Below, one piece after another: positions 16,809-46,959 of a stretch of 64,000 nt of DNA. The DNA is from an uncultured Pseudomonadota bacterium (GTDB lineage Bacteria > Pseudomonadota > Alphaproteobacteria > Rs-D84). The notes below the pieces were generated by a model. The model had not been told where the DNA came from. It did no database searches and was given only the letters and a program-made list of their open reading frames with translations. The DNA lies in the NCBI GenBank assembly GCA_902788485.1, contig CADAKI010000001.1:27927-91926 (forward strand), read 5' to 3'. Each line of letters opens with the position of its first letter. Position 1 is the first letter of the stretch. The position numbers and the translations under genes are program-made.

Positions 16809-17465
16809 ATGGAAAAACAAGAAATAAGAACATTTGGTCGCCGACACGGTAAAAAATTATCGCCACGAAAACAATCGTTATTGGCGAATATTTTGCCGGC
16901 CATTTTGCCAAAAAACATCAAAAACACCGGGAATTTAATTCTGGAAATTGGTTTTGGCAATGGCGAACATGTTCGCGATTTGGCGATTCGCAATCCACAA
17001 TCAATTATTATTGGCGCCGAACCATTTATGAACGGTGTTGCGGCATTATTATCCGCCATCACACACGAATCGAATAATCAAATTATGGACGAATTTAAAA
17101 ACATCTATATTTGGCCGGACGATGTTCGAAAACTTTTACATGAAACAAATCTAGAATTTAACGAAATTTGGGTTTTGCACCCAGACCCCTGGCCCAAGGC
17201 AAAACATGAAAAACGCAGGTTATTAAATTCTGAATTTTTAAATCTAATTGGCGAACATTTAACCGCGGATGGCCAAATCATCATCGGCACCGACCATTGG
17301 GAATATTTCGATTGGATATCACAACAGGTTAAAAAAACCGCGCTATGTGCATCATTTCCGCCAAAATCTAAAATTCATACACGATACGCTGAAAAAAATA
17401 TGGCGGGAACAACCGAACCAAAATATATGATTTTAACAAAATCAATAATTGACCCAAAAATGTAA
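16809..17465 (+). CDS. trmB: tRNA (guanine46-N7)-methyltransferase
   Basis: Start re-assigned to ATG at 16809 (MEKQEIRTFGRRHGKKLSPRKQ...). The 316-aa track ORF overlaps gltX. TrmB motifs LEIGFGNGEH, IGAEPF and HPDPWPKAKHEKRRL. Confidence 0.85.
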   Translation: MEKQEIRTFGRRHGKKLSPRKQSLLANILPAILPKNIKNTGNLILEIGFGNGEHVRDLAIRNPQSIIIGAEPFMNGVAALLSAITHESNNQIMDEFKNIYIWPDDVRKLLHETNLEFNEIWVLHPDPWPKAKHEKRRLLNSEFLNLIGEHLTADGQIIIGTDHWEYFDWISQQVKKTALCASFPPKSKIHTRYAEKNMAGTTEPKYMILTKSIIDPKM

Positions 17466-18116
17466 TTTATCTAATAACTCTGGACGCATTTTCGCAACCA
17501 AACGATATACTTGCTCGGCACGGTCAAAACTGTTGCCTAACATGATATGCAATTCCATATTTTGGTCTGCATCCCATGCATCCAACGCGGCATAGATGCG
17601 CCCAGTAAAATCCGATTTATCCCCCGCATCATTTGTTAACATCAATAACATCGATGTCGCACGCAATTTTTTTAAATTTGTAAAAACATTTTCCCAATCC
17701 AACGGCCAAATTTCAGATATATCAAACCCAACCGAAAAATCTTTATTAAAAAACAAATCATCACGCACCGGCAACATCAAATCTGCGAATCGGTCCAAAT
17801 CATTTAATTTAACAATTACATGCGCACCATCCGCACCATGTTTAAACCCAGATTTTATATCCACCGACATTTTTGCAACCACATCCACCCCGATTGTCGC
17901 CAGATAAAATCGCGGCATGATTTTAACATGAAATTTTTCCACCCACGGCCACAAAATCGGCACATTTTTTGGCACAACCGATAACGCCAAAACATGCGCA
18001 CTCAATGCATTTTCCGCCGCCCCCGCCAATTCAGTCGTATCAACATTATCATCCAACCACCACGACACTTTATCGGCGACATCTTTATTTTCAAAAATAT
18101 CTGTTATATTTATCAT
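17442..18116 (-). CDS. Hypothetical protein (224 aa)
   Basis: Clean ORF convergent with trmB. No motif I can assign with confidence. Confidence 0.35.
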   Translation of the reverse strand: MINITDIFENKDVADKVSWWLDDNVDTTELAGAAENALSAHVLALSVVPKNVPILWPWVEKFHVKIMPRFYLATIGVDVVAKMSVDIKSGFKHGADGAHVIVKLNDLDRFADLMLPVRDDLFFNKDFSVGFDISEIWPLDWENVFTNLKKLRATSMLLMLTNDAGDKSDFTGRIYAALDAWDADQNMELHIMLGNSFDRAEQVYRLVAKMRPELLDKLHFWVNY

Positions 18117-18158
18117 TGTCCTTTTTACTTTATCACAAATATGATATAATTAAAACAA

Positions 18159-19049
18159 ATGAAATTACACGAACGCATAAATTATATTTTATTAGGAACA
18201 CTGTGGTGCATGGCCATGGTGCTGGGGTTGGATTTTTGCCTGAACACGGTATATAACTTTAACATGTTTTCATCCGCGCATTGGGCATATATCGCCAATG
18301 CCCAGGCACAAAACCAACAAATTGCAACCGGATTCTATATTGCGATTACATTGGCAATTACATTGGGCATATTTGGACTGTATATGTTATTCCGCCCGCG
18401 TTTCAGAAAAATAATTTTAACAAAATCGGAACCGACCCCCATGCCCGCGCCCGATATTACACCACCCGCACAAGACGCCGTTTCACAAACACCAACAACA
18501 CCACAAACAATAAACGACCCGGTAATTCAACGCCCACCGCGACTGCACATACAATTACAAAACAACACACATACCACACCGCAAAAAACACCACAACAAA
18601 ACACAAACCAAACAAAAAACACCGAACAACAAAAACCGCGCTATATGCATGAAATCCGGGACATTTTTGAAAAAAACAATTATATCGTTTTGAATCCTAA
18701 AAAAATATCAAACACCGAAATTTCATTGATTGCATTGGGGTCAAACGAAACATTATGGTTGGGCGCATGCGACATATCGCACGAACAAATGGCCGATATA
18801 ATCTTGGCATTCAAATCTGTATTTGGCGAAACATTACAAGATATTGAAATTGATATAAATGCATTTATAATAAACCCGACCGACAACGAACACGTCGATG
18901 CCATTTTAGATTTCACATCTTTGGATGAATTATCAGATGCAATAAATGAAACCCCAAACGATGAACCCGACAATGACAATGAATCTGAAAACATGGACGC
19001 ATTTCGTGGATACATTGAAACGGTTATAACATACCTGGGAAATAAATAA
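18159..19049 (+). CDS. Membrane protein: two N-terminal TMs, Pro/Thr/Gln-rich linker, acidic C-terminal domain (hypothetical)
   Basis: 296 aa. TMs at about 10-30 and 57-79. Linker EPTPMPAPDITPPAQ...TPQKTPQQNTNQTKNTEQQ. C-terminal ~130-aa domain of unknown family. First gene of a four-gene cassette. Confidence 0.45.
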   Translation: MKLHERINYILLGTLWCMAMVLGLDFCLNTVYNFNMFSSAHWAYIANAQAQNQQIATGFYIAITLAITLGIFGLYMLFRPRFRKIILTKSEPTPMPAPDITPPAQDAVSQTPTTPQTINDPVIQRPPRLHIQLQNNTHTTPQKTPQQNTNQTKNTEQQKPRYMHEIRDIFEKNNYIVLNPKKISNTEISLIALGSNETLWLGACDISHEQMADIILAFKSVFGETLQDIEIDINAFIINPTDNEHVDAILDFTSLDELSDAINETPNDEPDNDNESENMDAFRGYIETVITYLGNK

Positions 19050-19555
19050 TGAAAATATCTGAAACGGCGGCAATTGCAAGAATATCAGAACTGGGGATGG
19101 ACGACATGCCACTGGTTGAATATACGCCACACGCAACAAAATTACCACCCGATTGGTTTCATAAATATCATGAATTGGTACACAAATTTATGGAAACATT
19201 GACCGATTGCGCCACAGAATTGGCATTTATGAATTTATCACAAAACGAATTTATGGCATTGGTGACTGGACGCGCATTGCCGCGCAACACTTCAATTCGG
19301 TGGCGCATACCAATCACAATGGGCGGCGAACTATCCATAGATAATATGTTTTTATGCCGAACATTTCCACACTCACACAGATTGGACAGATTTTTAATCG
19401 AACAATCTGGGAACGAAACAATATGGTTACCAAACCCGGCACACGCCATATACATCACCACACACACCGCGGGTGGTGGTGCGGGCGGAAACGCAACATC
19501 GGACCGATTGGCCCAAATGGCCAGTCAGATTGCCAACGATAACTCTTTGGGATAA
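19049..19555 (+). CDS. Hypothetical protein with a colicin-DNase/HNH-like motif
   Basis: 168 aa. Start overlaps the upstream stop (TAATG). RIPITMGGELSIDNMFLCRTFPHSHRLD resembles the colicin E9 DNase HNH core [27 protein letters not shown]. The HH doublet that precedes the motif is W-R here. Confidence 0.4.
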   Translation: MKISETAAIARISELGMDDMPLVEYTPHATKLPPDWFHKYHELVHKFMETLTDCATELAFMNLSQNEFMALVTGRALPRNTSIRWRIPITMGGELSIDNMFLCRTFPHSHRLDRFLIEQSGNETIWLPNPAHAIYITTHTAGGGAGGNATSDRLAQMASQIANDNSLG

Positions 19556-19557
19556 AC

Positions 19558-19992
19558 ATGAACATAGACGAATTTTTATCAAACATAAAAACAAAAGGCG
19601 CACTTGTATGGGGGCCATCAAACGCCCGCGCCATTGAATTTGCAAATTCAAATCTGCAACAAAAAAAATGCGCAATGTTGCCAAATCAGATTATCAGTTT
19701 ATACATGAAAACCGCCGGAATAAACCTGGGTACCGGATACATGTTTGGCCCAAGCGAATTACAAAACGGCGCCAACTTTCCGATACCATCTATTGTACAA
19801 ATCAATGAAGAATTACGCAATATACCGGCATTAAAAAACAAGACATTATTTGCAAGAAATGATTTATTTTGGTTTGCATTTGATGCATTTGGCACATATT
19901 ACATGCTAAATAATTTGAACGGCAATATTTTACGACAATACGACGACGCATACCGCGCATTATACGATTGCATGATGGGAGGAAAATTATAA
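19558..19992 (+). CDS. SUKH (SMI1/KNR4)-like protein, tentative immunity-type protein
   Basis: 144 aa, 2 nt after the previous stop. AIEFANSNLQQKKCAMLPNQIISLYMKTAGINLG fits the SMI1_KNR4 N-terminal signature (ieele..lg..LP..Y..fl...nGg). LFWFAFDAFGTYYMLNNLNGNI fits the central a.d..G..y.ld segment. Confidence 0.4.
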   Translation: MNIDEFLSNIKTKGALVWGPSNARAIEFANSNLQQKKCAMLPNQIISLYMKTAGINLGTGYMFGPSELQNGANFPIPSIVQINEELRNIPALKNKTLFARNDLFWFAFDAFGTYYMLNNLNGNILRQYDDAYRALYDCMMGGKL

Positions 19993-20196
19993 ATGAAAAA
20001 GTTATCTGTATCTTTATCCGGTCACCAAACCAGTATATCACTAGAACCAGAATTTATCGCAGAATTACAGCACATAGCGCGATTTCAAAACAAATCTATT
20101 GCTTCCATAATATCTGATATAGACCAAGCACGCGCACCCAACACAAACCTGTCATCGGCAATACGCGTTTGGATATTAAAAACCGTTCATAAATAA
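19993..20196 (+). CDS. Ribbon-helix-helix (RHH_4 family) protein
   Basis: 67 aa. KKLSVSLSGHQTSISLEPEFIAELQHIARFQNKSIASIISDID matches the RHH_4 consensus (SLSGHxTSxSLEPxFW..L..IA...g.S...LI..ID). Starts immediately after the previous stop. Confidence 0.55.
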   Translation: MKKLSVSLSGHQTSISLEPEFIAELQHIARFQNKSIASIISDIDQARAPNTNLSSAIRVWILKTVHK

Positions 20197-20204
20197 TTTT
20201 TTGA

Positions 20205-22136
20205 TTATTCTTTATCCGCCCTATATGCAATAAATCCGGCAAAAAACGCAATCAAGAAAATTATAAACATCCACGCATCACGTCCCAACATACGATACAG
20301 TGTCATATGCGCACCACGAACCGTTCCATCCAGCACACCAATTTCACCCACCGGTAATTGCGATATAATCGCACCATCGGCGCCGACAAACGCACTGATA
20401 CCGGAATAATTCGCGCGTATAACCGGCACACCCGATTCTATGGCGGCACGACGCACCATATCCAGGTGTTGATATGTCCCCGGCGTTTTTCCAAACCAAG
20501 TATCATTTGTAATATTAATAATCGCGTCAACACCCGACTGTTTTACAACAGCATCAGAAAAAATAATTTCATAACATACCGCCGGCGCAAAAACAAAATC
20601 ACGCCCTGCCTTGCCATCTATGGACAACAATCGTGCACCATCGCCAGCCGTTAAATTTGCCGGTGCAGGCACAAATTTAATCGGTCCATATTCACCAAAT
20701 GGAACCAAATGCGATTTATGATACACATCCGATATCGCACCATCCGCACCCGCCACAACCAAAGAATTAAACACATTACCCGCATCATAAAATGTCGCAC
20801 CAACCGCCACATTTTTATTTAATTCCAACGCCATTGGCAAAACATCATCGCGCAACAACACAAACGGATACGATGTTTCCGGATACACAACAAAATCAAT
20901 ATTTGATACATCACCCGCCAATTCCGTTAAATATTGAACTCTATTTTTTGCCTGATTCAATGCATCCACACGCGATAAAGAAATCTTTTTTTGTTGCGTT
21001 GTTGCGGGCTGAACAATTCGCACATTGATATTACCATCACCCAAACCAGACAATTTTATATTATTATATCCACCAATAATTCCACCCAAACCCAACAACA
21101 CAAAAAACAATATTACCCAACGCAGAACACGATTTTGTCGATTACAAAAATACTGTGCCACAGAGGCAGTTAAACCAATAATAACAAAAGTCAACCCCAA
21201 CGCACCAAACACCGACATAGAATTTGCGATAACCGGATACGGCAACATAATATTCGCGATTGGATTCCACGGAAACCCGGTAAACAACCATTCACGCAAC
21301 CACAAAACAGATGTCCAGGCACCTGCAAACAAAATCGGTTTTGCCCCAGATTTTATGTATATACACGATGTCAATACAAACGGAATTGTAAATATGACTG
21401 CACCGACAATACCGATACCAATCAACCCCGGCACCGTCCATATTGCAAATTGACGCGCCAATTCTGGCACAACATAAATAGAATGCAACGTCCACCAAAA
21501 CATCGATATTGCATACATCGCCCCAAATGGCACCGCACGCCACCACGCACGCCAAAAACCAATTCGTTCCACCCCGGAACACAACAACCAATACGCGGCA
21601 CCGATTGATAATATCGCCAACCACCACAAATTAAACGGTGCAAAACCAAACGCCGCAACACCACCAAACAATGCCCCCAGCGCATATTTCCACCACGGAA
21701 AAGCAACCTCGTCTGCATATGGATTTTTTATCCCCAGTTTTTTTAAAACCTTAATCTCTTTACCTTCCATTACGCGCGCATCTTTATCGGTCAAATGGTC
21801 ATACCCCAACAAATGAAACATACCATGCACAACCATATGTGTGGTATGTTCCGCCACAGAAATATTTGCATCTGCCGCCTGGGCCGCGACCGTATCCAAC
21901 GATATATAAATATCACCCAACAAAATATCGTCATCCAATTCGAACGATAAAACATTTGTCGGTTTATCAATATTGCGATACATCTTGTTCAACGCATGAA
22001 TTTCGTCATCATTGGTCAAGATAATTGAAACCTCGGCATCAGACAATTTTTTACCAACGACCATATTTGCGATTTTTTCAAAATCGATATTATATTTTTT
22101 CCACCGTTTATCGTTATAATTCACACACACTTTCAT
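20205..22136 (-). CDS. YbeY endoribonuclease fused in-frame to apolipoprotein N-acyltransferase Lnt
   Basis: 643-aa single ORF. Residues 1-143 are YbeY (HTTHMVVHGMFHLLGYDH...LKKLGIKNPYADE). About 144 onward is Lnt: 6-7 TMs, then a CN-hydrolase domain with E (YPETSYPF), K (HKSHLVPFGEY) and C (VCYEIIF). The junction codons AAT CCA TAT GCA GAC GAG GTT GCT TTT CCG TGG TGG have no stop. Confidence 0.8.
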   Translation of the reverse strand: MKVCVNYNDKRWKKYNIDFEKIANMVVGKKLSDAEVSIILTNDDEIHALNKMYRNIDKPTNVLSFELDDDILLGDIYISLDTVAAQAADANISVAEHTTHMVVHGMFHLLGYDHLTDKDARVMEGKEIKVLKKLGIKNPYADEVAFPWWKYALGALFGGVAAFGFAPFNLWWLAILSIGAAYWLLCSGVERIGFWRAWWRAVPFGAMYAISMFWWTLHSIYVVPELARQFAIWTVPGLIGIGIVGAVIFTIPFVLTSCIYIKSGAKPILFAGAWTSVLWLREWLFTGFPWNPIANIMLPYPVIANSMSVFGALGLTFVIIGLTASVAQYFCNRQNRVLRWVILFFVLLGLGGIIGGYNNIKLSGLGDGNINVRIVQPATTQQKKISLSRVDALNQAKNRVQYLTELAGDVSNIDFVVYPETSYPFVLLRDDVLPMALELNKNVAVGATFYDAGNVFNSLVVAGADGAISDVYHKSHLVPFGEYGPIKFVPAPANLTAGDGARLLSIDGKAGRDFVFAPAVCYEIIFSDAVVKQSGVDAIINITNDTWFGKTPGTYQHLDMVRRAAIESGVPVIRANYSGISAFVGADGAIISQLPVGEIGVLDGTVRGAHMTLYRMLGRDAWMFIIFLIAFFAGFIAYRADKE

Positions 22137-22154: not shown

Positions 22155-23963
22155 TTAATCTTTATTTCGTCCAAACAAACTTTTAGCAAACCTAGATGTT
22201 TTTGTATTTTTTTGTTGAACCATTTTTGTTGCGTTTTGTAATATTTCGCGCCCACGATTATTCAATTTATTCAATCTTGATTGTGCCACAGCATTTCCTA
22301 ATTGGACTGCTTTTTTATAACTCTTTTTTGCCTTGGCAAATTTACCCATATTTTCATACGCCAACCCCATATTAAAATAAGATGCAGACATCGTTTCATT
22401 ATCACCAATTTCCACCGCCCGTTCAGACATCTCAACAGATTTTTCATAATCACCATAATGGATATACGTAATTGCCAAATCATTAAACAAACTAGGACTG
22501 ACACCTTCTAATTCTATAACCTTGTTAAATCCAGCCAATGCAGAATCCCATTTTTCTTGCTTATAATCCACCAATGCGGCCTCGTAAATTTTTTGACGAC
22601 GATTGGCACCATACAAAAACAAATCCACATCCGCACAATACGCAAATACATCATCGCGATATTTATCAGATTTTTGAACAACCTGGCACACGGTCATACC
22701 ATTTGCCACAACACCATTACAAATAACACTTTTCGCACGTTTCAAAGTAGATTTAGAAAAATCATGTTTCAACTTATCAAAATAGTTATTTGCATACGAC
22801 ACCGCCCCAGATCGCTTGCAATCAATTTGAACACCAAACATGTCATTACAATAATTATCAATATCCAACAACAGCAATATTTCATGCACACGGCGCGCTT
22901 TCAACCCTGGAAAATTTTTCAACCGTTTTACATCGACATCGTCATCAACATTTAATAAATATTTTGCCCACGCCGTTCTGCTATTTGGGTGCGCAACAAT
23001 ATATTCACAAAATTTCTTGCAACACTGTGGTGAATTAAATAATACAGACGCAATCACCGTTAAATCACGCGGGGTCAATTCGATATTTGTTTCCGCCAAA
23101 ACATCACACATATATTTATTAAACGCGCGCCCACCATCCATATAAAAAAACCAACCTGCGATTCCATCATAAACCTCGTTATCGGTTAACGGACGCGGCA
23201 CACCCGATTTCGTTTTGGGATATTTTTTATACATAACGGACGCCTTGGCCCACGATGTTGATGTAAAATCGTACGGATGTTTGGCATCTGGCACATAATA
23301 TAAACCAACAGCCAATGTATTTTTATCGCCATTTATATAATCACAAAACCAATCCGTTCTGTAATTTTCGGTTGAAAACAAAACCGCCTGGGTGTATGCA
23401 AAATTATCCATCACCGCCTGCTTTACAGATTTCCTGTCGGTCATTTTTATTTTTTTACCCAGATTATTTTTGATTTGTTTTCTTTTATCCACAACATCAA
23501 AAGACACTGTATTACCATCTGCAACTGGGCGTGATTTTATATTCACCTGTTGTTGCCGACCGGTTGATATAATATCCTTATCAGATTTTTTATTACCAAC
23601 AATCGCCGACCCGCCACCAATCAGCATTCCCAACATCGCCCACCAAATTGCAACCGCCGACATATTTGGATTTCGTTTTACAAAAGATTGAAATTTTTTT
23701 TCATTACCGTCTTTGTCACGACCAACCTGGATTTCAGATAATTTTTTTTCTAACCGTCGCATCAGTTTATTATCCAATGCCACAACACGCCCAATTTGCA
23801 TCATAAACTCTGTCAGTCCCATACCGACCAACGCCGAACCCTTTAAAATCTTTTTTGTTTTCGTTGGCGCATCCATATCGGCAACATGTTTTATTTTTTC
23901 GTGTACAAATTTAATTGGCTTTTTAACCGCATTACGATATTTTTCTGCCATAATTTCCCCCAT
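22155..23963 (-). CDS. Large membrane-anchored protein with C-terminal TPR repeats (hypothetical)
   Basis: 602 aa. One TM (MSAVAIWWAMLGMLIGGGSAIV), a central ~350-aa Cys-rich domain of unknown family, and at least two C-terminal TPR-like repeats (WDSALAGFNKVIELEG...; YFNMGLAYENMGKFAKAKKSYKKAVQLGN). Confidence 0.5.
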   Translation of the reverse strand: MGEIMAEKYRNAVKKPIKFVHEKIKHVADMDAPTKTKKILKGSALVGMGLTEFMMQIGRVVALDNKLMRRLEKKLSEIQVGRDKDGNEKKFQSFVKRNPNMSAVAIWWAMLGMLIGGGSAIVGNKKSDKDIISTGRQQQVNIKSRPVADGNTVSFDVVDKRKQIKNNLGKKIKMTDRKSVKQAVMDNFAYTQAVLFSTENYRTDWFCDYINGDKNTLAVGLYYVPDAKHPYDFTSTSWAKASVMYKKYPKTKSGVPRPLTDNEVYDGIAGWFFYMDGGRAFNKYMCDVLAETNIELTPRDLTVIASVLFNSPQCCKKFCEYIVAHPNSRTAWAKYLLNVDDDVDVKRLKNFPGLKARRVHEILLLLDIDNYCNDMFGVQIDCKRSGAVSYANNYFDKLKHDFSKSTLKRAKSVICNGVVANGMTVCQVVQKSDKYRDDVFAYCADVDLFLYGANRRQKIYEAALVDYKQEKWDSALAGFNKVIELEGVSPSLFNDLAITYIHYGDYEKSVEMSERAVEIGDNETMSASYFNMGLAYENMGKFAKAKKSYKKAVQLGNAVAQSRLNKLNNRGREILQNATKMVQQKNTKTSRFAKSLFGRNKD

Positions 23964-23966
23964 AAA

Positions 23967-24332
23967 TTATTTATGTCCCAACCCAGATTTTTTTGCGATT
24001 TTCGACCGCACACGTGCATAGTTCGGCGCAACAAACGGATAATCATCCGGCAAGCCCCATTTTGCACAATATTGTGCCGGCGTCATATTAAAACGCCGTT
24101 TTATATACCGTCGCAACATCACATGCCATGTACCATCTTCTAAACATTGAATTTTATCTGGCCGCACAGAATCCGCGATTTGTTGGGGCGACACAGATGT
24201 TCCACGCAAAGTTGCCCGCGCGGCATTTACCGCATCCGTCATTGATAAATTCGGATTATTCGCCATTGCCGCCGCCGCTAGATTCGCAACCGCCAATGTC
24301 CACTCACTATCATTTTTTATACTATTTACCAT
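23967..24332 (-). CDS. mucR: MucR/Ros-family transcriptional regulator, zinc-ligand-deficient variant
   Basis: 121 aa. KIQCLEDGTWHVMLRRYIKRRFNMTPAQYCAKWGLPDDYPFVAPNYARVRSKIAKKSGLG aligns with Ros/MucR [50 protein letters not shown]. Only the first of the C2H2 ligands is kept (C, then D, Y, R). Confidence 0.8.
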   Translation of the reverse strand: MVNSIKNDSEWTLAVANLAAAAMANNPNLSMTDAVNAARATLRGTSVSPQQIADSVRPDKIQCLEDGTWHVMLRRYIKRRFNMTPAQYCAKWGLPDDYPFVAPNYARVRSKIAKKSGLGHK

Positions 24333-24406
24333 TTGCCAAAAAACCTTTTATTTACTACAATTATACCACAAATAAATAACAAGTAAAATTAAAGTAAAAT
24401 AAAACA

Positions 24407-45075: not shown

Positions 45076-45111
45076 CTATACACTTATTACGAAAAAAATA
45101 GGAATAATGTT

Positions 45112-46959
45112 ATGAAAATTCGCAACATTGCAATTATTGCACACGTGGACCATGGGAAAACAACCTTGGTCGATAATATGTTAAAACAGGCGGGAACTTT
45201 CCGCGAAAATGAACGCGTCGAAGACCGCGTCATGGACAGCGGCGACATCGAACGCGAACGCGGAATCACCATTTCTGCAAAGCCGACATCTATCCAATGG
45301 GGCGAATATAAAATTAATATCGTGGACACACCGGGCCACGCCGATTTCGGGGGCGAGGTTGAACGTATTTTATCCATGGTTGACGGCGTTGTGTTGTTGG
45401 TCGACAGTGCCGAAGGCCCACTGCCCCAAACAAAATTCGTGTTATCCAAGGCATTAAAACTGGGGCTGCGCCCGATTGTATGTATCAACAAAATTGACCG
45501 TGGCGATGCCCGTCCCGAAGAAGTTTTAACCGAAACATTTGATTTGTTCGACAAACTGGGTGCCACCGATGCACAACTGGATTTCCCATACCTGTACGCG
45601 GTTGGTCGTGACGGTTGGGCGGTTCGTGACCTGGCGGACATCAATAACCCAAACAAAGATTTAAAACCATTATTCCAACTGATTGTGGACCATGTACCGG
45701 CACCTGATTGCAACGGCACACGTTGCCAATTGGACGCACCATTTAAAATGTTGGCCACAACATTAGAGGCCGACCCATATGTCGGACGTATTTTAACCGG
45801 TAAAATCGAATCCGGCACTGTCCGCGTTGGCCAAACGGTCAAGGCAATCAACATGGCGGGGGATTTGGTTGAAACCGCCAAAATCACAAAAATTATTGAA
45901 CACGCCGGCGTGCAAAAAGTATCACGCGATTCTGCATCGGCGGGCGACATTGTGGTTGTGGCTGGATTTACACGTGCAACCGTGGCGGACACATTGTGTG
46001 ATCCATCTGTCACCGAACCGATTCCGGCAATTCCAATTGACCCACCAACCCTGACGATGACATTTTTCGTGAACACATCCCCGTTGGCGGGCAAATCCGG
46101 CAAAAAATTGACATCGCGTATGATTGGCGAACGGTTGTTTCGCGAGGCCGAAACAAACATCGCCCTGCGCGTCACACAAAGTGCCAACAACGAATCTTTC
46201 GAGGTTTCCGGTCGTGGCGAATTACAACTGGGGATTTTGATTGAAACAATGCGCCGCGAAGGATTCGAATTATCGGTGTCGCGTCCACGCGTTATCATGC
46301 ACCAAAACGAAAACGGCGAAAAAATGGAACCAATCGAAGAAGTCGTTATCGATGTGGACGATGAATTCAGCGGTGTCGTCATCGAAAAAATGACAAAGCG
46401 CAAGGCAACCATTGTTGACATGAAACCATCCGGCATTGGCAAAACCCGCATCGTGTTTTCGGCACCATCACGCGGATTGATTGGATATCTGTCTGAATTC
46501 CGCACCGACACACGTGGCACCGGAATTATGAACCGTGTATTTGATAAATACGATTTATATCGCGGTCCAATCACACAATACCGCCCCGGCGTTTTGGTAT
46601 CAATGGAGGCAGGACAAACAACAACATACGCCCTGCACAATTTGGAACCACGTGGCGTTCTGTTCGTTGGCCCACAGACCGAGGTTTATTCCGGTATGAT
46701 TGTCGGCGAACACAGCAAAGAAAACGATATCGAGGTCAACCCGGTTCGTGGCAAACAATTAACAAACGTTCGTTCGGTGACCGCCGATGAAAAATTGTTC
46801 TTGGCGCCACCGCGCAAGATTTCATTAGAAGAAGCCCTGTCATATATCCAAGACGATGAATTGGTAGAGGTCACACCCGCAACAATCCGTCTGCGTAAAA
46901 AAGAACTGGACAGTGGCAAACGCAAAAAAGCATATCGTTTCGCGGAATCCGCAGATTAA
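45112..46959 (+). CDS. typA: Ribosome-associated translational GTPase TypA/BipA
   Basis: 615 aa. NIAIIAHVDHGKTTLVD, DTPGHADF, NKID, and the BipA C-terminal domain. The 517-aa antisense ORF 45087..46640 is a shadow. Confidence 0.9.
   Translation: MKIRNIAIIAHVDHGKTTLVDNMLKQAGTFRENERVEDRVMDSGDIERERGITISAKPTSIQWGEYKINIVDTPGHADFGGEVERILSMVDGVVLLVDSAEGPLPQTKFVLSKALKLGLRPIVCINKIDRGDARPEEVLTETFDLFDKLGATDAQLDFPYLYAVGRDGWAVRDLADINNPNKDLKPLFQLIVDHVPAPDCNGTRCQLDAPFKMLATTLEADPYVGRILTGKIESGTVRVGQTVKAINMAGDLVETAKITKIIEHAGVQKVSRDSASAGDIVVVAGFTRATVADTLCDPSVTEPIPAIPIDPPTLTMTFFVNTSPLAGKSGKKLTSRMIGERLFREAETNIALRVTQSANNESFEVSGRGELQLGILIETMRREGFELSVSRPRVIMHQNENGEKMEPIEEVVIDVDDEFSGVVIEKMTKRKATIVDMKPSGIGKTRIVFSAPSRGLIGYLSEFRTDTRGTGIMNRVFDKYDLYRGPITQYRPGVLVSMEAGQTTTYALHNLEPRGVLFVGPQTEVYSGMIVGEHSKENDIEVNPVRGKQLTNVRSVTADEKLFLAPPRKISLEEALSYIQDDELVEVTPATIRLRKKELDSGKRKKAYRFAESAD

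What the first reader, a model, noticed from the sequence alone, without database searches (positions are those of the whole stretch)
20205..22136. In-frame fusion of YbeY (rRNA-maturation endoribonuclease) with Lnt (apolipoprotein N-acyltransferase)
A single 643-aa ORF reads from the YbeY metalloprotease-like domain (HGMFHLLGYDH zinc site; ...LKKLGIKNPYADE) straight into the Lnt N-terminal TM helices (VAFPWWKYALGALFGGVAAFGFAPFNLWWLAIL...) and the CN-hydrolase domain carrying the E/K/C triad. I checked the junction codons and found no stop or obvious frameshift. In alphaproteobacteria ybeY and lnt are normally separate genes of one operon, with corC/tlyC between them; here corC is absent and the two are fused. 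Topology is compatible, because the Lnt N-terminus is cytoplasmic. The fusion could couple 16S maturation and quality control to envelope lipoprotein maturation. It could also be a sequencing or assembly error that removed a stop.
Basis: partly seen in the sequence, partly recalled or inferred. Interest (0 to 1): 0.55.

Follow-up and report, generated by a model that had tools for sequence, protein, structure and literature searches.

The report
Conserved YbeY–Lnt fusion protein
One gene in this uncultured gut alphaproteobacterium really does join the ribosome-maturation nuclease YbeY to the membrane enzyme Lnt; the fusion is inherited across a whole clade rather than being an assembly error, but whether joining the two changes what either does is unknown.

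Summary
Window 20205..22136 (-) is one uninterrupted 643-aa ORF. A complete YbeY domain (aa 1-143) runs with almost no linker into a complete Lnt, made of seven TM helices, a periplasmic CN-hydrolase domain and an eighth TM helix.

It is not an error. The identical protein is encoded on at least five independently assembled contigs. All 120 best database clusters (55-98% identity) have the same three-domain architecture, and more distant fusions reach 33% identity. The YbeY zinc histidines (H104/H108/H114), R54 and the Lnt triad (E420/K474/C521) are invariant in 72 aligned fusion proteins. AlphaFold gives both folds with good confidence.

Comparative loci show a likely route:
- 54 alphaproteobacterial loci have miaB-phoH-ybeY-corC-lnt.
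- Four gut or rumen alphaproteobacterial loci have lost corC, so ybeY abuts lnt. In one, the spacing is TAA-AGA-ATG, in frame.
- Fused lineages have also lost phoH from the locus.

The best reading is a bifunctional protein produced by operon erosion, which fixes an intact YbeY to the cytoplasmic face of the inner membrane. Functional coupling of rRNA maturation to lipoprotein acylation is untested. I found no paper on this fusion. It is a new variant of a known kind, of moderate interest.

The parts
20205..22136 (-). Whole ybeY::lnt fusion ORF, 643 aa including the stop codon
   Evidence: The identical protein is found on independent contigs.
21708..22136 (-). YbeY endoribonuclease domain (aa 1-143)
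   Evidence: Pfam PF02130 E 7.8e-35. TIGR00043 130 bits. Aligns to 1xm5 residues 23-153 of 155. Foldseek against 1xm5 gives target TM-score 0.83, rmsd about 2.5 A.
21795..21827 (-). YbeY zinc site H104-x3-H108-x5-H114 (HGMFHLLGYDH)
   Evidence: All three histidines are invariant in the 15- and 72-sequence alignments of fusion proteins.
21687..21722 (-). Junction: the natural YbeY C-terminus (NPYADE), then about 4-6 residues, then the start of Lnt TM1 (FPWWKY...). No stop and no credible internal start.
   Evidence: AlphaFold predicts coil at aa 134-147 with pLDDT about 74.
21048..21695 (-). Lnt membrane domain, seven predicted TM helices (aa 148-363)
   Evidence: Pfam LNT_N. AlphaFold helices 148-164, 171-186, 194-220, 224-248, 263-285, 307-331 and 336-363. 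Foldseek against Lnt 8b0l/5n6h gives target TM-score 0.76.
20283..21041 (-). Lnt periplasmic CN-hydrolase (nitrilase-fold) domain (aa 366-618)
   Evidence: Pfam PF00795 E 1.1e-21. TIGR00546. Foldseek.
20877..20879 (-). Lnt catalytic Glu (E420, equivalent to E. coli E267)
   Evidence: Alignment to 5n6m. Invariant.
20715..20717 (-). Lnt catalytic Lys (K474, equivalent to E. coli K335)
20574..20576 (-). Lnt catalytic Cys (C521, equivalent to E. coli C387)
20211..20282 (-). Lnt C-terminal TM helix 8 (aa 619-642)
   Evidence: AlphaFold helix 619-642.
22155..23963 (-). Upstream co-directional gene (602 aa, C-terminal TPR repeats), 18 nt from the fusion start. It is an insertion specific to this lineage.
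   Evidence: Pfam TPR hits. No homologue in the syntenic loci L001-L005.
23967..24332 (-). MucR/Ros regulator gene, co-directional. It is the conserved upstream neighbour of the fusion in relatives. A promoter-like site lies at 24360-24387 on the minus strand.
   Evidence: The promoter call is a consensus match only.

Best explanation
This is a genuine, vertically inherited gene for a bifunctional protein. A complete, catalytically intact YbeY (the zinc-dependent endoribonuclease and 30S assembly factor) is joined through its natural C-terminus, with only about 4-6 linker residues, to TM helix 1 of a complete, catalytically intact Lnt (apolipoprotein N-acyltransferase). The Lnt N-terminus is cytoplasmic, so the YbeY domain sits on the cytoplasmic face of the inner membrane and the CN-hydrolase domain faces the periplasm. 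Each domain most likely does its usual job: YbeY acts on 16S rRNA 3'-end and small-subunit maturation, and Lnt carries out the third acylation of lipoproteins. The fusion most likely arose by erosion of the ancestral miaB-phoH-ybeY-corC-lnt operon. corC was lost first, which brought ybeY and lnt together. Loss of the ybeY stop codon then fused them, and phoH was lost from the locus as well. Shown here: the ORF, both domains, the invariant catalytic residues, both folds, conservation across a clade, and the intermediate gene orders. Inferred: that a single polypeptide is made, that both activities are retained, the order of evolutionary steps, and that the main consequences are membrane tethering of YbeY and equal production of the two domains, not a new chemistry.
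For: The ORF is uninterrupted. Both family models score far above their curated cut-offs. YbeY aligns to its very C-terminus and Lnt follows at once. H104/H108/H114, R54 and E420/K474/C521 are invariant in 72 fusion homologues of 55-89% identity. The AlphaFold model has pLDDT 84 and pTM 0.75, and matches solved Lnt (target TM-score 0.76) and YbeY (0.83). The exact protein is on at least five independent contigs. All 120 best clusters are three-domain fusions. An exhaustive search of 1.84 billion representatives lists eight full-length fusion clusters down to 33% identity among its 150 best hits. Seven GTDB species representatives carry the fusion in one ORF. Intermediate states exist: L008, L022, L027 and L031 have miaB-phoH-ybeY-lnt without corC, and L008 reads ...NPYQE TAA AGA ATG..., in frame. 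L006, L007 and P0139 have miaB directly upstream of the fusion. In 54 of 54 canonical loci corC lies between ybeY and lnt. The surrounding gene order is syntenic across L001-L005.
Against: No expression or protein data exist. Production of one 72-kDa polypeptide is inferred from the ORF alone. Only 64 kb of the genome was seen, so a second, stand-alone ybeY, lnt, corC or phoH elsewhere cannot be excluded. A rough NJ tree places a group of unfused Lnt proteins inside the fused clade. This suggests the link can be undone and may be selectively near-neutral. One fusion (P0136) falls outside the main clade, so the origin may not be single. A YbeY held within a few residues of the membrane might have restricted access to 30S particles, which questions whether it functions unchanged.
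Confidence: 0.75

Rival explanations
1. The fusion records a real physical or functional partnership between YbeY and Lnt or the membrane, in the way gene fusions sometimes reveal interacting partners (a 'Rosetta stone' link). Late 30S maturation or ribosome quality control would take place at the membrane, or YbeY would have a membrane- or envelope-linked role. That would also explain why ybeY, corC and lnt stay in one operon across Proteobacteria.
For: The fusion is retained down to 33% identity. Many relatives carry a conserved linker: a Cys motif (C-x4-5-CCPG) followed by a basic amphipathic-looking helix (for example KKLKIRENGFWQY), which looks built for the membrane surface rather than being random spacer. 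ybeY-corC-lnt linkage is very widely conserved (E. coli ybeZYX-lnt operon, bioRxiv 10.1101/2023.03.20.533420). Titles cited in the Era review (PMC10582724) report that YbeY's partner Era binds the cytoplasmic membrane in streptococci. YbeY-Era fusions are read the same way in that review.
Against: Fusions of neighbouring operon genes often arise without any functional coupling. Unfused Lnt proteins are nested inside the fused clade. The linker is variable and is nearly deleted in the window's own subclade. There is no experimental link between YbeY and Lnt, and in the YbeX study an lnt plasmid did not complement the ybeX phenotype.
Confidence: 0.12
2. There is one ORF but two proteins. Lnt would be translated separately from an internal start, or the fusion would be cleaved after synthesis, so the cell in effect has free YbeY and ordinary Lnt.
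For: An in-frame TTG at codon 156 follows a GGGGG run. The junction is predicted to be coil with lower confidence.
Against: The G-run lies only 3 nt before TTG156, which is poor spacing. The residue at that position is not conserved among homologues. No other in-frame start lies between codons 124 and 169. No promoter-like site on the minus strand lies near the junction. The reading frame is preserved through junctions of very different length and sequence in over 100 clusters, which would not be needed if the halves were made separately. Even with internal initiation, the N-terminal product would still carry YbeY attached to the membrane domain.
Confidence: 0.1
3. The fusion is a sequencing or assembly artefact, such as a lost stop codon, a frameshift or a chimeric join.
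For: None was found.
Against: Two independently assembled contigs from different samples differ by 0 and 1 nt over the 1,932-nt gene, and at least five contigs carry the exact protein. The fusion is conserved in all 120 listed clusters from NCBI, ENA, JGI and Logan and in seven GTDB representatives.
Confidence: 0.01
4. The YbeY part is a decaying relic domain on a working Lnt, and the real YbeY function is supplied by another gene.
For: Public annotation names these proteins only as apolipoprotein N-acyltransferase. The rest of the genome was not seen.
Against: The YbeY domain is among the most conserved parts of the protein. R54, TNVLSFEL and H104/H108/H114 are all invariant in 72 sequences, and it scores 130 bits against the equivalog model. 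Among the 150 best hits of the exhaustive search, the six that cover little more than the YbeY part were read; four end in or next to the fusion's own sequence and two run on into unrelated sequence, so none is a convincing stand-alone YbeY.
Confidence: 0.03

Closest known systems
Canonical proteobacterial (miaB-)ybeZ/phoH-ybeY-ybeX/corC-lnt operon (E. coli ybeZYX-lnt)
   Same: It has the same two enzymes in the same order (ybeY upstream of lnt) and the same catalytic residues. In the more basal fused lineages miaB still lies directly upstream.
   Different: Here corC and phoH are absent from the locus, and from the whole 64-kb window, and ybeY and lnt form one ORF. In 54 of 54 canonical loci corC separates them.
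ybeY-lnt adjacent but unfused loci of other gut and rumen alphaproteobacterial MAGs (L008, L022, L027, L031)
   Same: corC is already lost and ybeY ends with ...NPY(Q/L/E)E just before the lnt start. L008 needs a single change in its TAA stop to give an in-frame fusion.
   Different: They still have two ORFs, phoH is still present upstream, and their Lnt carries its own variable N-terminal extension.
YbeY-Era fusion proteins (some Clostridia, Selenomonadales, Thermoleophilum; review PMC10582724)
   Same: YbeY is the N-terminal module of a two-enzyme polypeptide, fused to the product of a frequent neighbouring gene.
   Different: In that case the partner is a soluble ribosome-assembly GTPase that binds YbeY. 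Here the partner is a polytopic membrane acyltransferase with no known role in ribosome biogenesis.
Membrane-anchored ribonucleases (RNase E membrane-targeting helix in E. coli, RNase Y N-terminal TM helix in Bacillus subtilis). This comparison rests on my own knowledge and was not tested here.
   Same: An RNA-processing nuclease is confined to the cytoplasmic face of the membrane.
   Different: Those enzymes use a dedicated anchor. Here the anchor is a whole, active, unrelated enzyme, and the nuclease family is different.

Membership tests
YbeY (PF02130 / TIGR00043, rRNA maturation RNase) | Family model score above the curated cut-off | tested here: met
   PF02130 scores 120 bits (cut-off 25). 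TIGR00043 scores 130 bits (cut-off 45).
YbeY (PF02130 / TIGR00043, rRNA maturation RNase) | Zinc-binding H-x3-H-x5-H motif, and the conserved Arg equivalent to E. coli R59 | tested here: met
   H104, H108, H114 and R54 are present and invariant in 72 homologues.
YbeY (PF02130 / TIGR00043, rRNA maturation RNase) | YbeY fold | tested here: met
   Foldseek against 1xm5 gives target TM-score 0.80-0.83 and rmsd 2.4-2.6 A.
YbeY (PF02130 / TIGR00043, rRNA maturation RNase) | Endoribonuclease activity and a role in 16S rRNA 3'-end maturation | not testable with these tools
   This needs complementation of a ybeY mutant or an in vitro assay.
Lnt (TIGR00546, apolipoprotein N-acyltransferase) | Equivalog model score above the cut-off | tested here: met
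   222 bits against a cut-off of 132.9.
Lnt (TIGR00546, apolipoprotein N-acyltransferase) | Glu-Lys-Cys catalytic triad of the nitrilase domain | tested here: met
   E420, K474 and C521 align to the triad of solved Lnt and are invariant.
Lnt (TIGR00546, apolipoprotein N-acyltransferase) | Eight TM helices, with the periplasmic nitrilase-fold domain between TM7 and TM8 | tested here: met
   The AlphaFold model has seven long helices before aa 363 and one at 619-642. Target TM-score is 0.73-0.78 against the 24 listed Lnt chains.
Lnt (TIGR00546, apolipoprotein N-acyltransferase) | N-acylation of apolipoproteins | not testable with these tools
   This needs Lnt-depletion rescue or mass spectrometry of lipoproteins.
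Canonical ybeZYX-lnt operon | phoH/ybeZ immediately upstream of ybeY | tested here: not met
   There is no PhoH hit in the 64-kb window or in L001-L007.
Canonical ybeZYX-lnt operon | corC/ybeX between ybeY and lnt | tested here: not met
   There is no CorC hit in the window or within 10 kb of any fused or adjacent locus.
Conserved YbeY::Lnt fusion clade (defined in this work) | One ORF with YbeY, LNT_N and CN_hydrolase in that order, shared with relatives | tested here: met
   All 120 best clusters, L001-L007, and P0121-P0125, P0128, P0136 and P0139.

The most novel reading that the evidence does not exclude
The fusion may be a functional clue rather than a by-product of genome compaction. YbeY would normally work at, or with, the inner membrane and the Lnt/CorC module, for instance in late 30S maturation or quality control of membrane-proximal ribosomes, or through an envelope-related hydrolase role of its metalloprotease-like fold. 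This clade would have hard-wired that association, with the Cys-rich, amphipathic-looking linker of relatives acting as a membrane-surface or metal-binding element. That would finally explain the long-conserved but unexplained ybeY-corC-lnt linkage.
Probability: 0.12. Interest if true: 0.75.

Novelty: new variant of a known kind. Interest (0 to 1): 0.4.

Why it matters
YbeY is one of the most widely conserved bacterial proteins, and its exact mode of action is still debated. Why it is so often encoded next to corC and lnt is unexplained.

This fusion is a natural, long-lived construct in which an apparently intact YbeY is fixed within a few residues of the inner membrane. It shows that the clade can retain such a YbeY. 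If no second ybeY exists, it would show that the clade can live with only a membrane-tethered YbeY. Either way it gives a ready-made test case: compare full-length and split constructs in E. coli ybeY and lnt mutants.

There is also a practical point. Public annotation calls these proteins only 'apolipoprotein N-acyltransferase', so gene-name-based surveys would wrongly score ybeY, a near-universal core gene, as missing from these gut alphaproteobacterial MAGs.

If the fusion is only operon compaction in a streamlined genome, it is a tidy example, with intermediates, of how neighbouring genes fuse, and little more than that.

Tried and rejected
- **Assembly or sequencing error.** Rejected: independent contigs carry the same gene and the fusion is conserved across the clade.
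- **Internal start for Lnt.** The only in-frame candidate near the junction is TTG156, with a G-run 3 nt upstream. It is not conserved and the spacing is poor. The promoter scan found nothing on the minus strand at the junction.
- **Stand-alone YbeY in close relatives.** Six hits of the exhaustive search cover little more than the YbeY part. P0146, P0194 and P0140 simply stop inside the fusion's own sequence, P0239 turns into unrelated sequence just after the YbeY C-terminus, and P0149 and P0127 continue into unrelated sequence further on. None is evidence for a second gene.
- **corC, phoH or miaB elsewhere in the window.** None found.
- **Is the unfused P0135 Lnt just a split fusion with ybeY upstream?** No. 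Its upstream gene is an unrelated Cys-rich protein with an N-terminal hydrophobic stretch.
- **Literature.** Five searches found no report of a YbeY-Lnt fusion. The library lacks most subscription journals and InterPro architecture tables, so prior listing in a database cannot be excluded.
- **Rfam scan of the window.** No hits at gathering threshold.
- **AlphaFold output.** It gives confidence and secondary structure only, so I could not measure whether the YbeY domain docks on the Lnt cytoplasmic loops.
Full report
**1. The observation**

Window 20205..22136 on the minus strand is a single 643-aa ORF that starts with ATG and has no internal stop.
- Pfam places YbeY at aa 16-134, LNT_N at 158-321 and CN_hydrolase at 442-612.
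- The NCBIfam equivalog models for YbeY (130 bits, cut-off 45) and Lnt (222 bits, cut-off 133) are both passed by a wide margin.
- Against solved structures, aa 18-143 align to E. coli YbeY (1xm5) residues 23-153 of 155. The YbeY module is therefore complete to its natural C-terminus (NPYADE against DPYIAE).
- Aa 145 onward align to P. aeruginosa Lnt (5n6m) from residue 25.
- Only about 4-6 residues separate the end of YbeY from the first Lnt membrane helix.

**2. Not an artefact**

The exact 643-aa protein is recorded on at least five contigs from different assemblies. The two I inspected (ENA ERZ1029115 and Logan ERR3275110) differ from the window by 1 and 0 nucleotides over the 1,932-nt gene.

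A search of the 5.8-billion-protein collection returned 120 best clusters of 640-686 aa at 55-98% identity, from NCBI, ENA, JGI and Logan. Every one carries YbeY, LNT_N and CN_hydrolase.

An exhaustive HMMER pass over 1.84 billion 50%-identity representatives listed, among its 150 best hits, eight full-length fusion clusters reaching 33% identity (P0121-P0125, P0128, P0136, P0139), ahead of ordinary unfused Lnt proteins.

In the GTDB species representatives, seven loci (L001-L007) have both domains in one ORF. They come from rumen and gut alphaproteobacterial MAGs, a Candidatus Enterousia MAG and a MAG labelled Rickettsiales.

**3. Both halves look functional**

In alignments of 15 and 72 fusion proteins, these residues are invariant (mapped through):
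- the YbeY zinc ligands H104, H108 and H114;
- R54 and the TNVLSFEL block;
- the Lnt triad E420, K474 and C521.

AlphaFold2 with the 72-sequence alignment gives mean pLDDT 84 and pTM 0.75. It predicts seven long helices between aa 148 and 363, a mixed alpha/beta domain at 372-617 and a final helix at 619-642. The junction at 134-147 is coil with pLDDT about 74. Foldseek matches the model to solved Lnt structures (target TM-score 0.73-0.78) and to E. coli YbeY (0.80-0.83, rmsd about 2.5 A).

From the published Lnt structures and topology (established knowledge), the Lnt N-terminus is cytoplasmic. The YbeY domain is therefore placed on the cytoplasmic face and the nitrilase domain in the periplasm. 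Seven helices before the periplasmic domain fit that topology.

**4. How it arose**

I classified the 80 related loci.

| Class | Loci | Detail |
|---|---|---|
| ybeY and lnt separated | 54 | Gap 0.85-3.1 kb, median 1.2 kb; corC lies between them in all 54 |
| ybeY and lnt adjacent, separate ORFs, no corC | 5 | L008, L022, L027, L031 (gut or rumen Alphaproteobacteria) and L072 (labelled Deltaproteobacteria) |
| Fused in one ORF | 7 | L001-L007 |
| No ybeY upstream on the same strand in the locus | 14 | Not informative |

- The canonical locus L030 (Rhizomicrobium) reads miaB-phoH-ybeY-corC-lnt.
- In L008 the sequence is ...NPYQE TAA AGA ATG..., in frame, so one substitution in the stop codon would create a fusion. 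L022 is also in frame.
- The four alphaproteobacterial adjacent loci still have miaB-phoH upstream.
- The fused loci L006 and L007, and the distant fusion P0139, have miaB directly upstream with phoH gone.
- The window and L001-L005 have none of miaB, phoH or corC nearby, and the whole 64-kb window is negative for all three.

This series supports stepwise operon erosion: corC was lost, ybeY and lnt became adjacent, and the stop codon was then lost. The order of steps is an inference.

Around the window's gene the neighbourhood is syntenic in L001-L005: FtsK, two unknown genes, RarA, MucR, the fusion, an RHH_4 gene, four unknown genes, TrmB, GltX, HlyIII and ProS. That indicates long vertical inheritance. 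The TPR gene directly upstream in the window has no counterpart in those loci and looks like a lineage-specific insertion.

**5. Variation at the junction**

The window's subclade (P0001-P0036, at least 68% identity) has the minimal junction NPYADE-x2-4-F-x-WWKY. Many other members carry a 20-35-residue linker. It has a Cys motif (C-x4-5-CCPG, sometimes a longer CxCxC run) followed by a basic helix that looks amphipathic, such as ISFFKKLKIRENGFWQY. The reading frame is kept through all these variants.

A rough neighbour-joining tree of Lnt domains puts most fusions in one broad clade. It also nests a group of unfused Lnt proteins next to the P0125/L006 fusions, and it places P0136 outside the main clade. 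The locus of the unfused P0135 has an unrelated Cys-rich gene upstream, not ybeY. Secondary fission, and possibly more than one fusion event, are therefore likely. The tree is not rigorous.

**6. One product or two**

Between codons 124 and 169 the only in-frame start codon is TTG156, which sits 3 nt after a G-run. The spacing is poor and the position is not conserved. No promoter-like site on the minus strand lies near the junction. The best one lies upstream of mucR at 24360-24387 (consensus match only). A single polypeptide is the simplest reading, but it is not demonstrated.

**7. Mechanism**

The best-supported account is a bifunctional protein whose two modules keep their usual chemistry. 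The consequences of fusion would be co-expression in equal amounts and confinement of YbeY to the inner-membrane surface. I put this at about 0.75.

The more interesting alternative is that the fusion reflects a real functional association of YbeY with the membrane or with Lnt. I put this at about 0.12.
- For it: the fusion is old, the linker in relatives is structured-looking, and the ybeY-corC-lnt linkage is widespread.
- Against it: neighbouring operon genes fuse often, the clade shows apparent fission, and the linker has nearly been lost in this very lineage.

**8. Comparison with what is known**

[quoted passage not shown] YbeY-Era fusions are known and are taken as evidence for partnership (PMC10582724). 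Five full-text searches found no report of a YbeY-Lnt fusion. Public records name these proteins only 'apolipoprotein N-acyltransferase'. The protein passes every sequence and fold test for both the YbeY and Lnt families, and the locus fails both defining features of the canonical operon (phoH upstream, corC between).

**9. Verdict**

This is a real, conserved domain fusion, a new variant of a known kind and apparently undescribed. It is moderately interesting as a natural experiment on membrane-tethered YbeY and as an annotation pitfall. There is no evidence so far of new chemistry or of functional coupling.

Noticed in passing
window 1-64000: GC skew is very strong and almost uniformly negative on the plus strand: -0.2 to -0.33 over most 2-kb windows, near 0 only around 38-46 kb and 56-60 kb. 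Most long ORFs lie on the minus strand, whose coding sequence is markedly G- and T-rich.
   Followed up: no
window 22155-23963 (-): A 602-aa protein with C-terminal TPR repeats sits between mucR and the fusion gene. This is the lowest-GC 2-kb bin of the window (0.366). It has no homologue in the otherwise syntenic loci L001-L005, so it looks like a lineage-specific insertion.
   Followed up: partly
window 17442-20196: A block made of an RHH_4 gene plus four genes without Pfam hits (144, 168, 296 and 224 aa) lies next to the fusion on its downstream side. All five are conserved in order in L001-L005, and the first four also occur in L006, elsewhere in that locus. Function is unknown.
   Followed up: partly
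relatives P0037-P0121 (junction region): Many fusion homologues carry a Cys-rich linker (C-x4-5-CCPG, or CxCxC...CPGDKTISFF) followed by a basic helix that looks amphipathic. The window's subclade has lost it. It may be a metal-binding or membrane-surface element.
   Followed up: partly
L008 (CAVBCV010000004.1): The record is titled Lachnospiraceae bacterium, but the locus carries miaB-phoH-ybeY-lnt. Its MiaB and PhoH are 47-57% identical to those of Rhizomicrobium (Alphaproteobacteria), and Lnt is unexpected in a Firmicute. The contig is probably mis-binned.
   Followed up: no
L083 5195-8080 and 1102-1626: In the relative with unfused lnt, a Cas9-like gene (HNH_4, Cas9_RuvC) lies about 2 kb downstream of lnt. 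A small Cys-rich protein with an N-terminal hydrophobic stretch lies directly upstream.
   Followed up: no
window 1-64000: No Rfam family reaches its gathering score anywhere in the 64 kb, so no tRNA, rRNA or riboswitch was detected.
   Followed up: no
window 45087-46959: Two long ORFs overlap on opposite strands: 45087..46640 (-) of 517 aa and 45112..46959 (+) of 615 aa. At most one is likely to be real. I did not examine them.
   Followed up: no
database records for P0004, P0008, P0069, P0084, P0115: NCBI names these three-domain proteins only 'apolipoprotein N-acyltransferase', so the YbeY module is invisible to name-based gene surveys.
   Followed up: no
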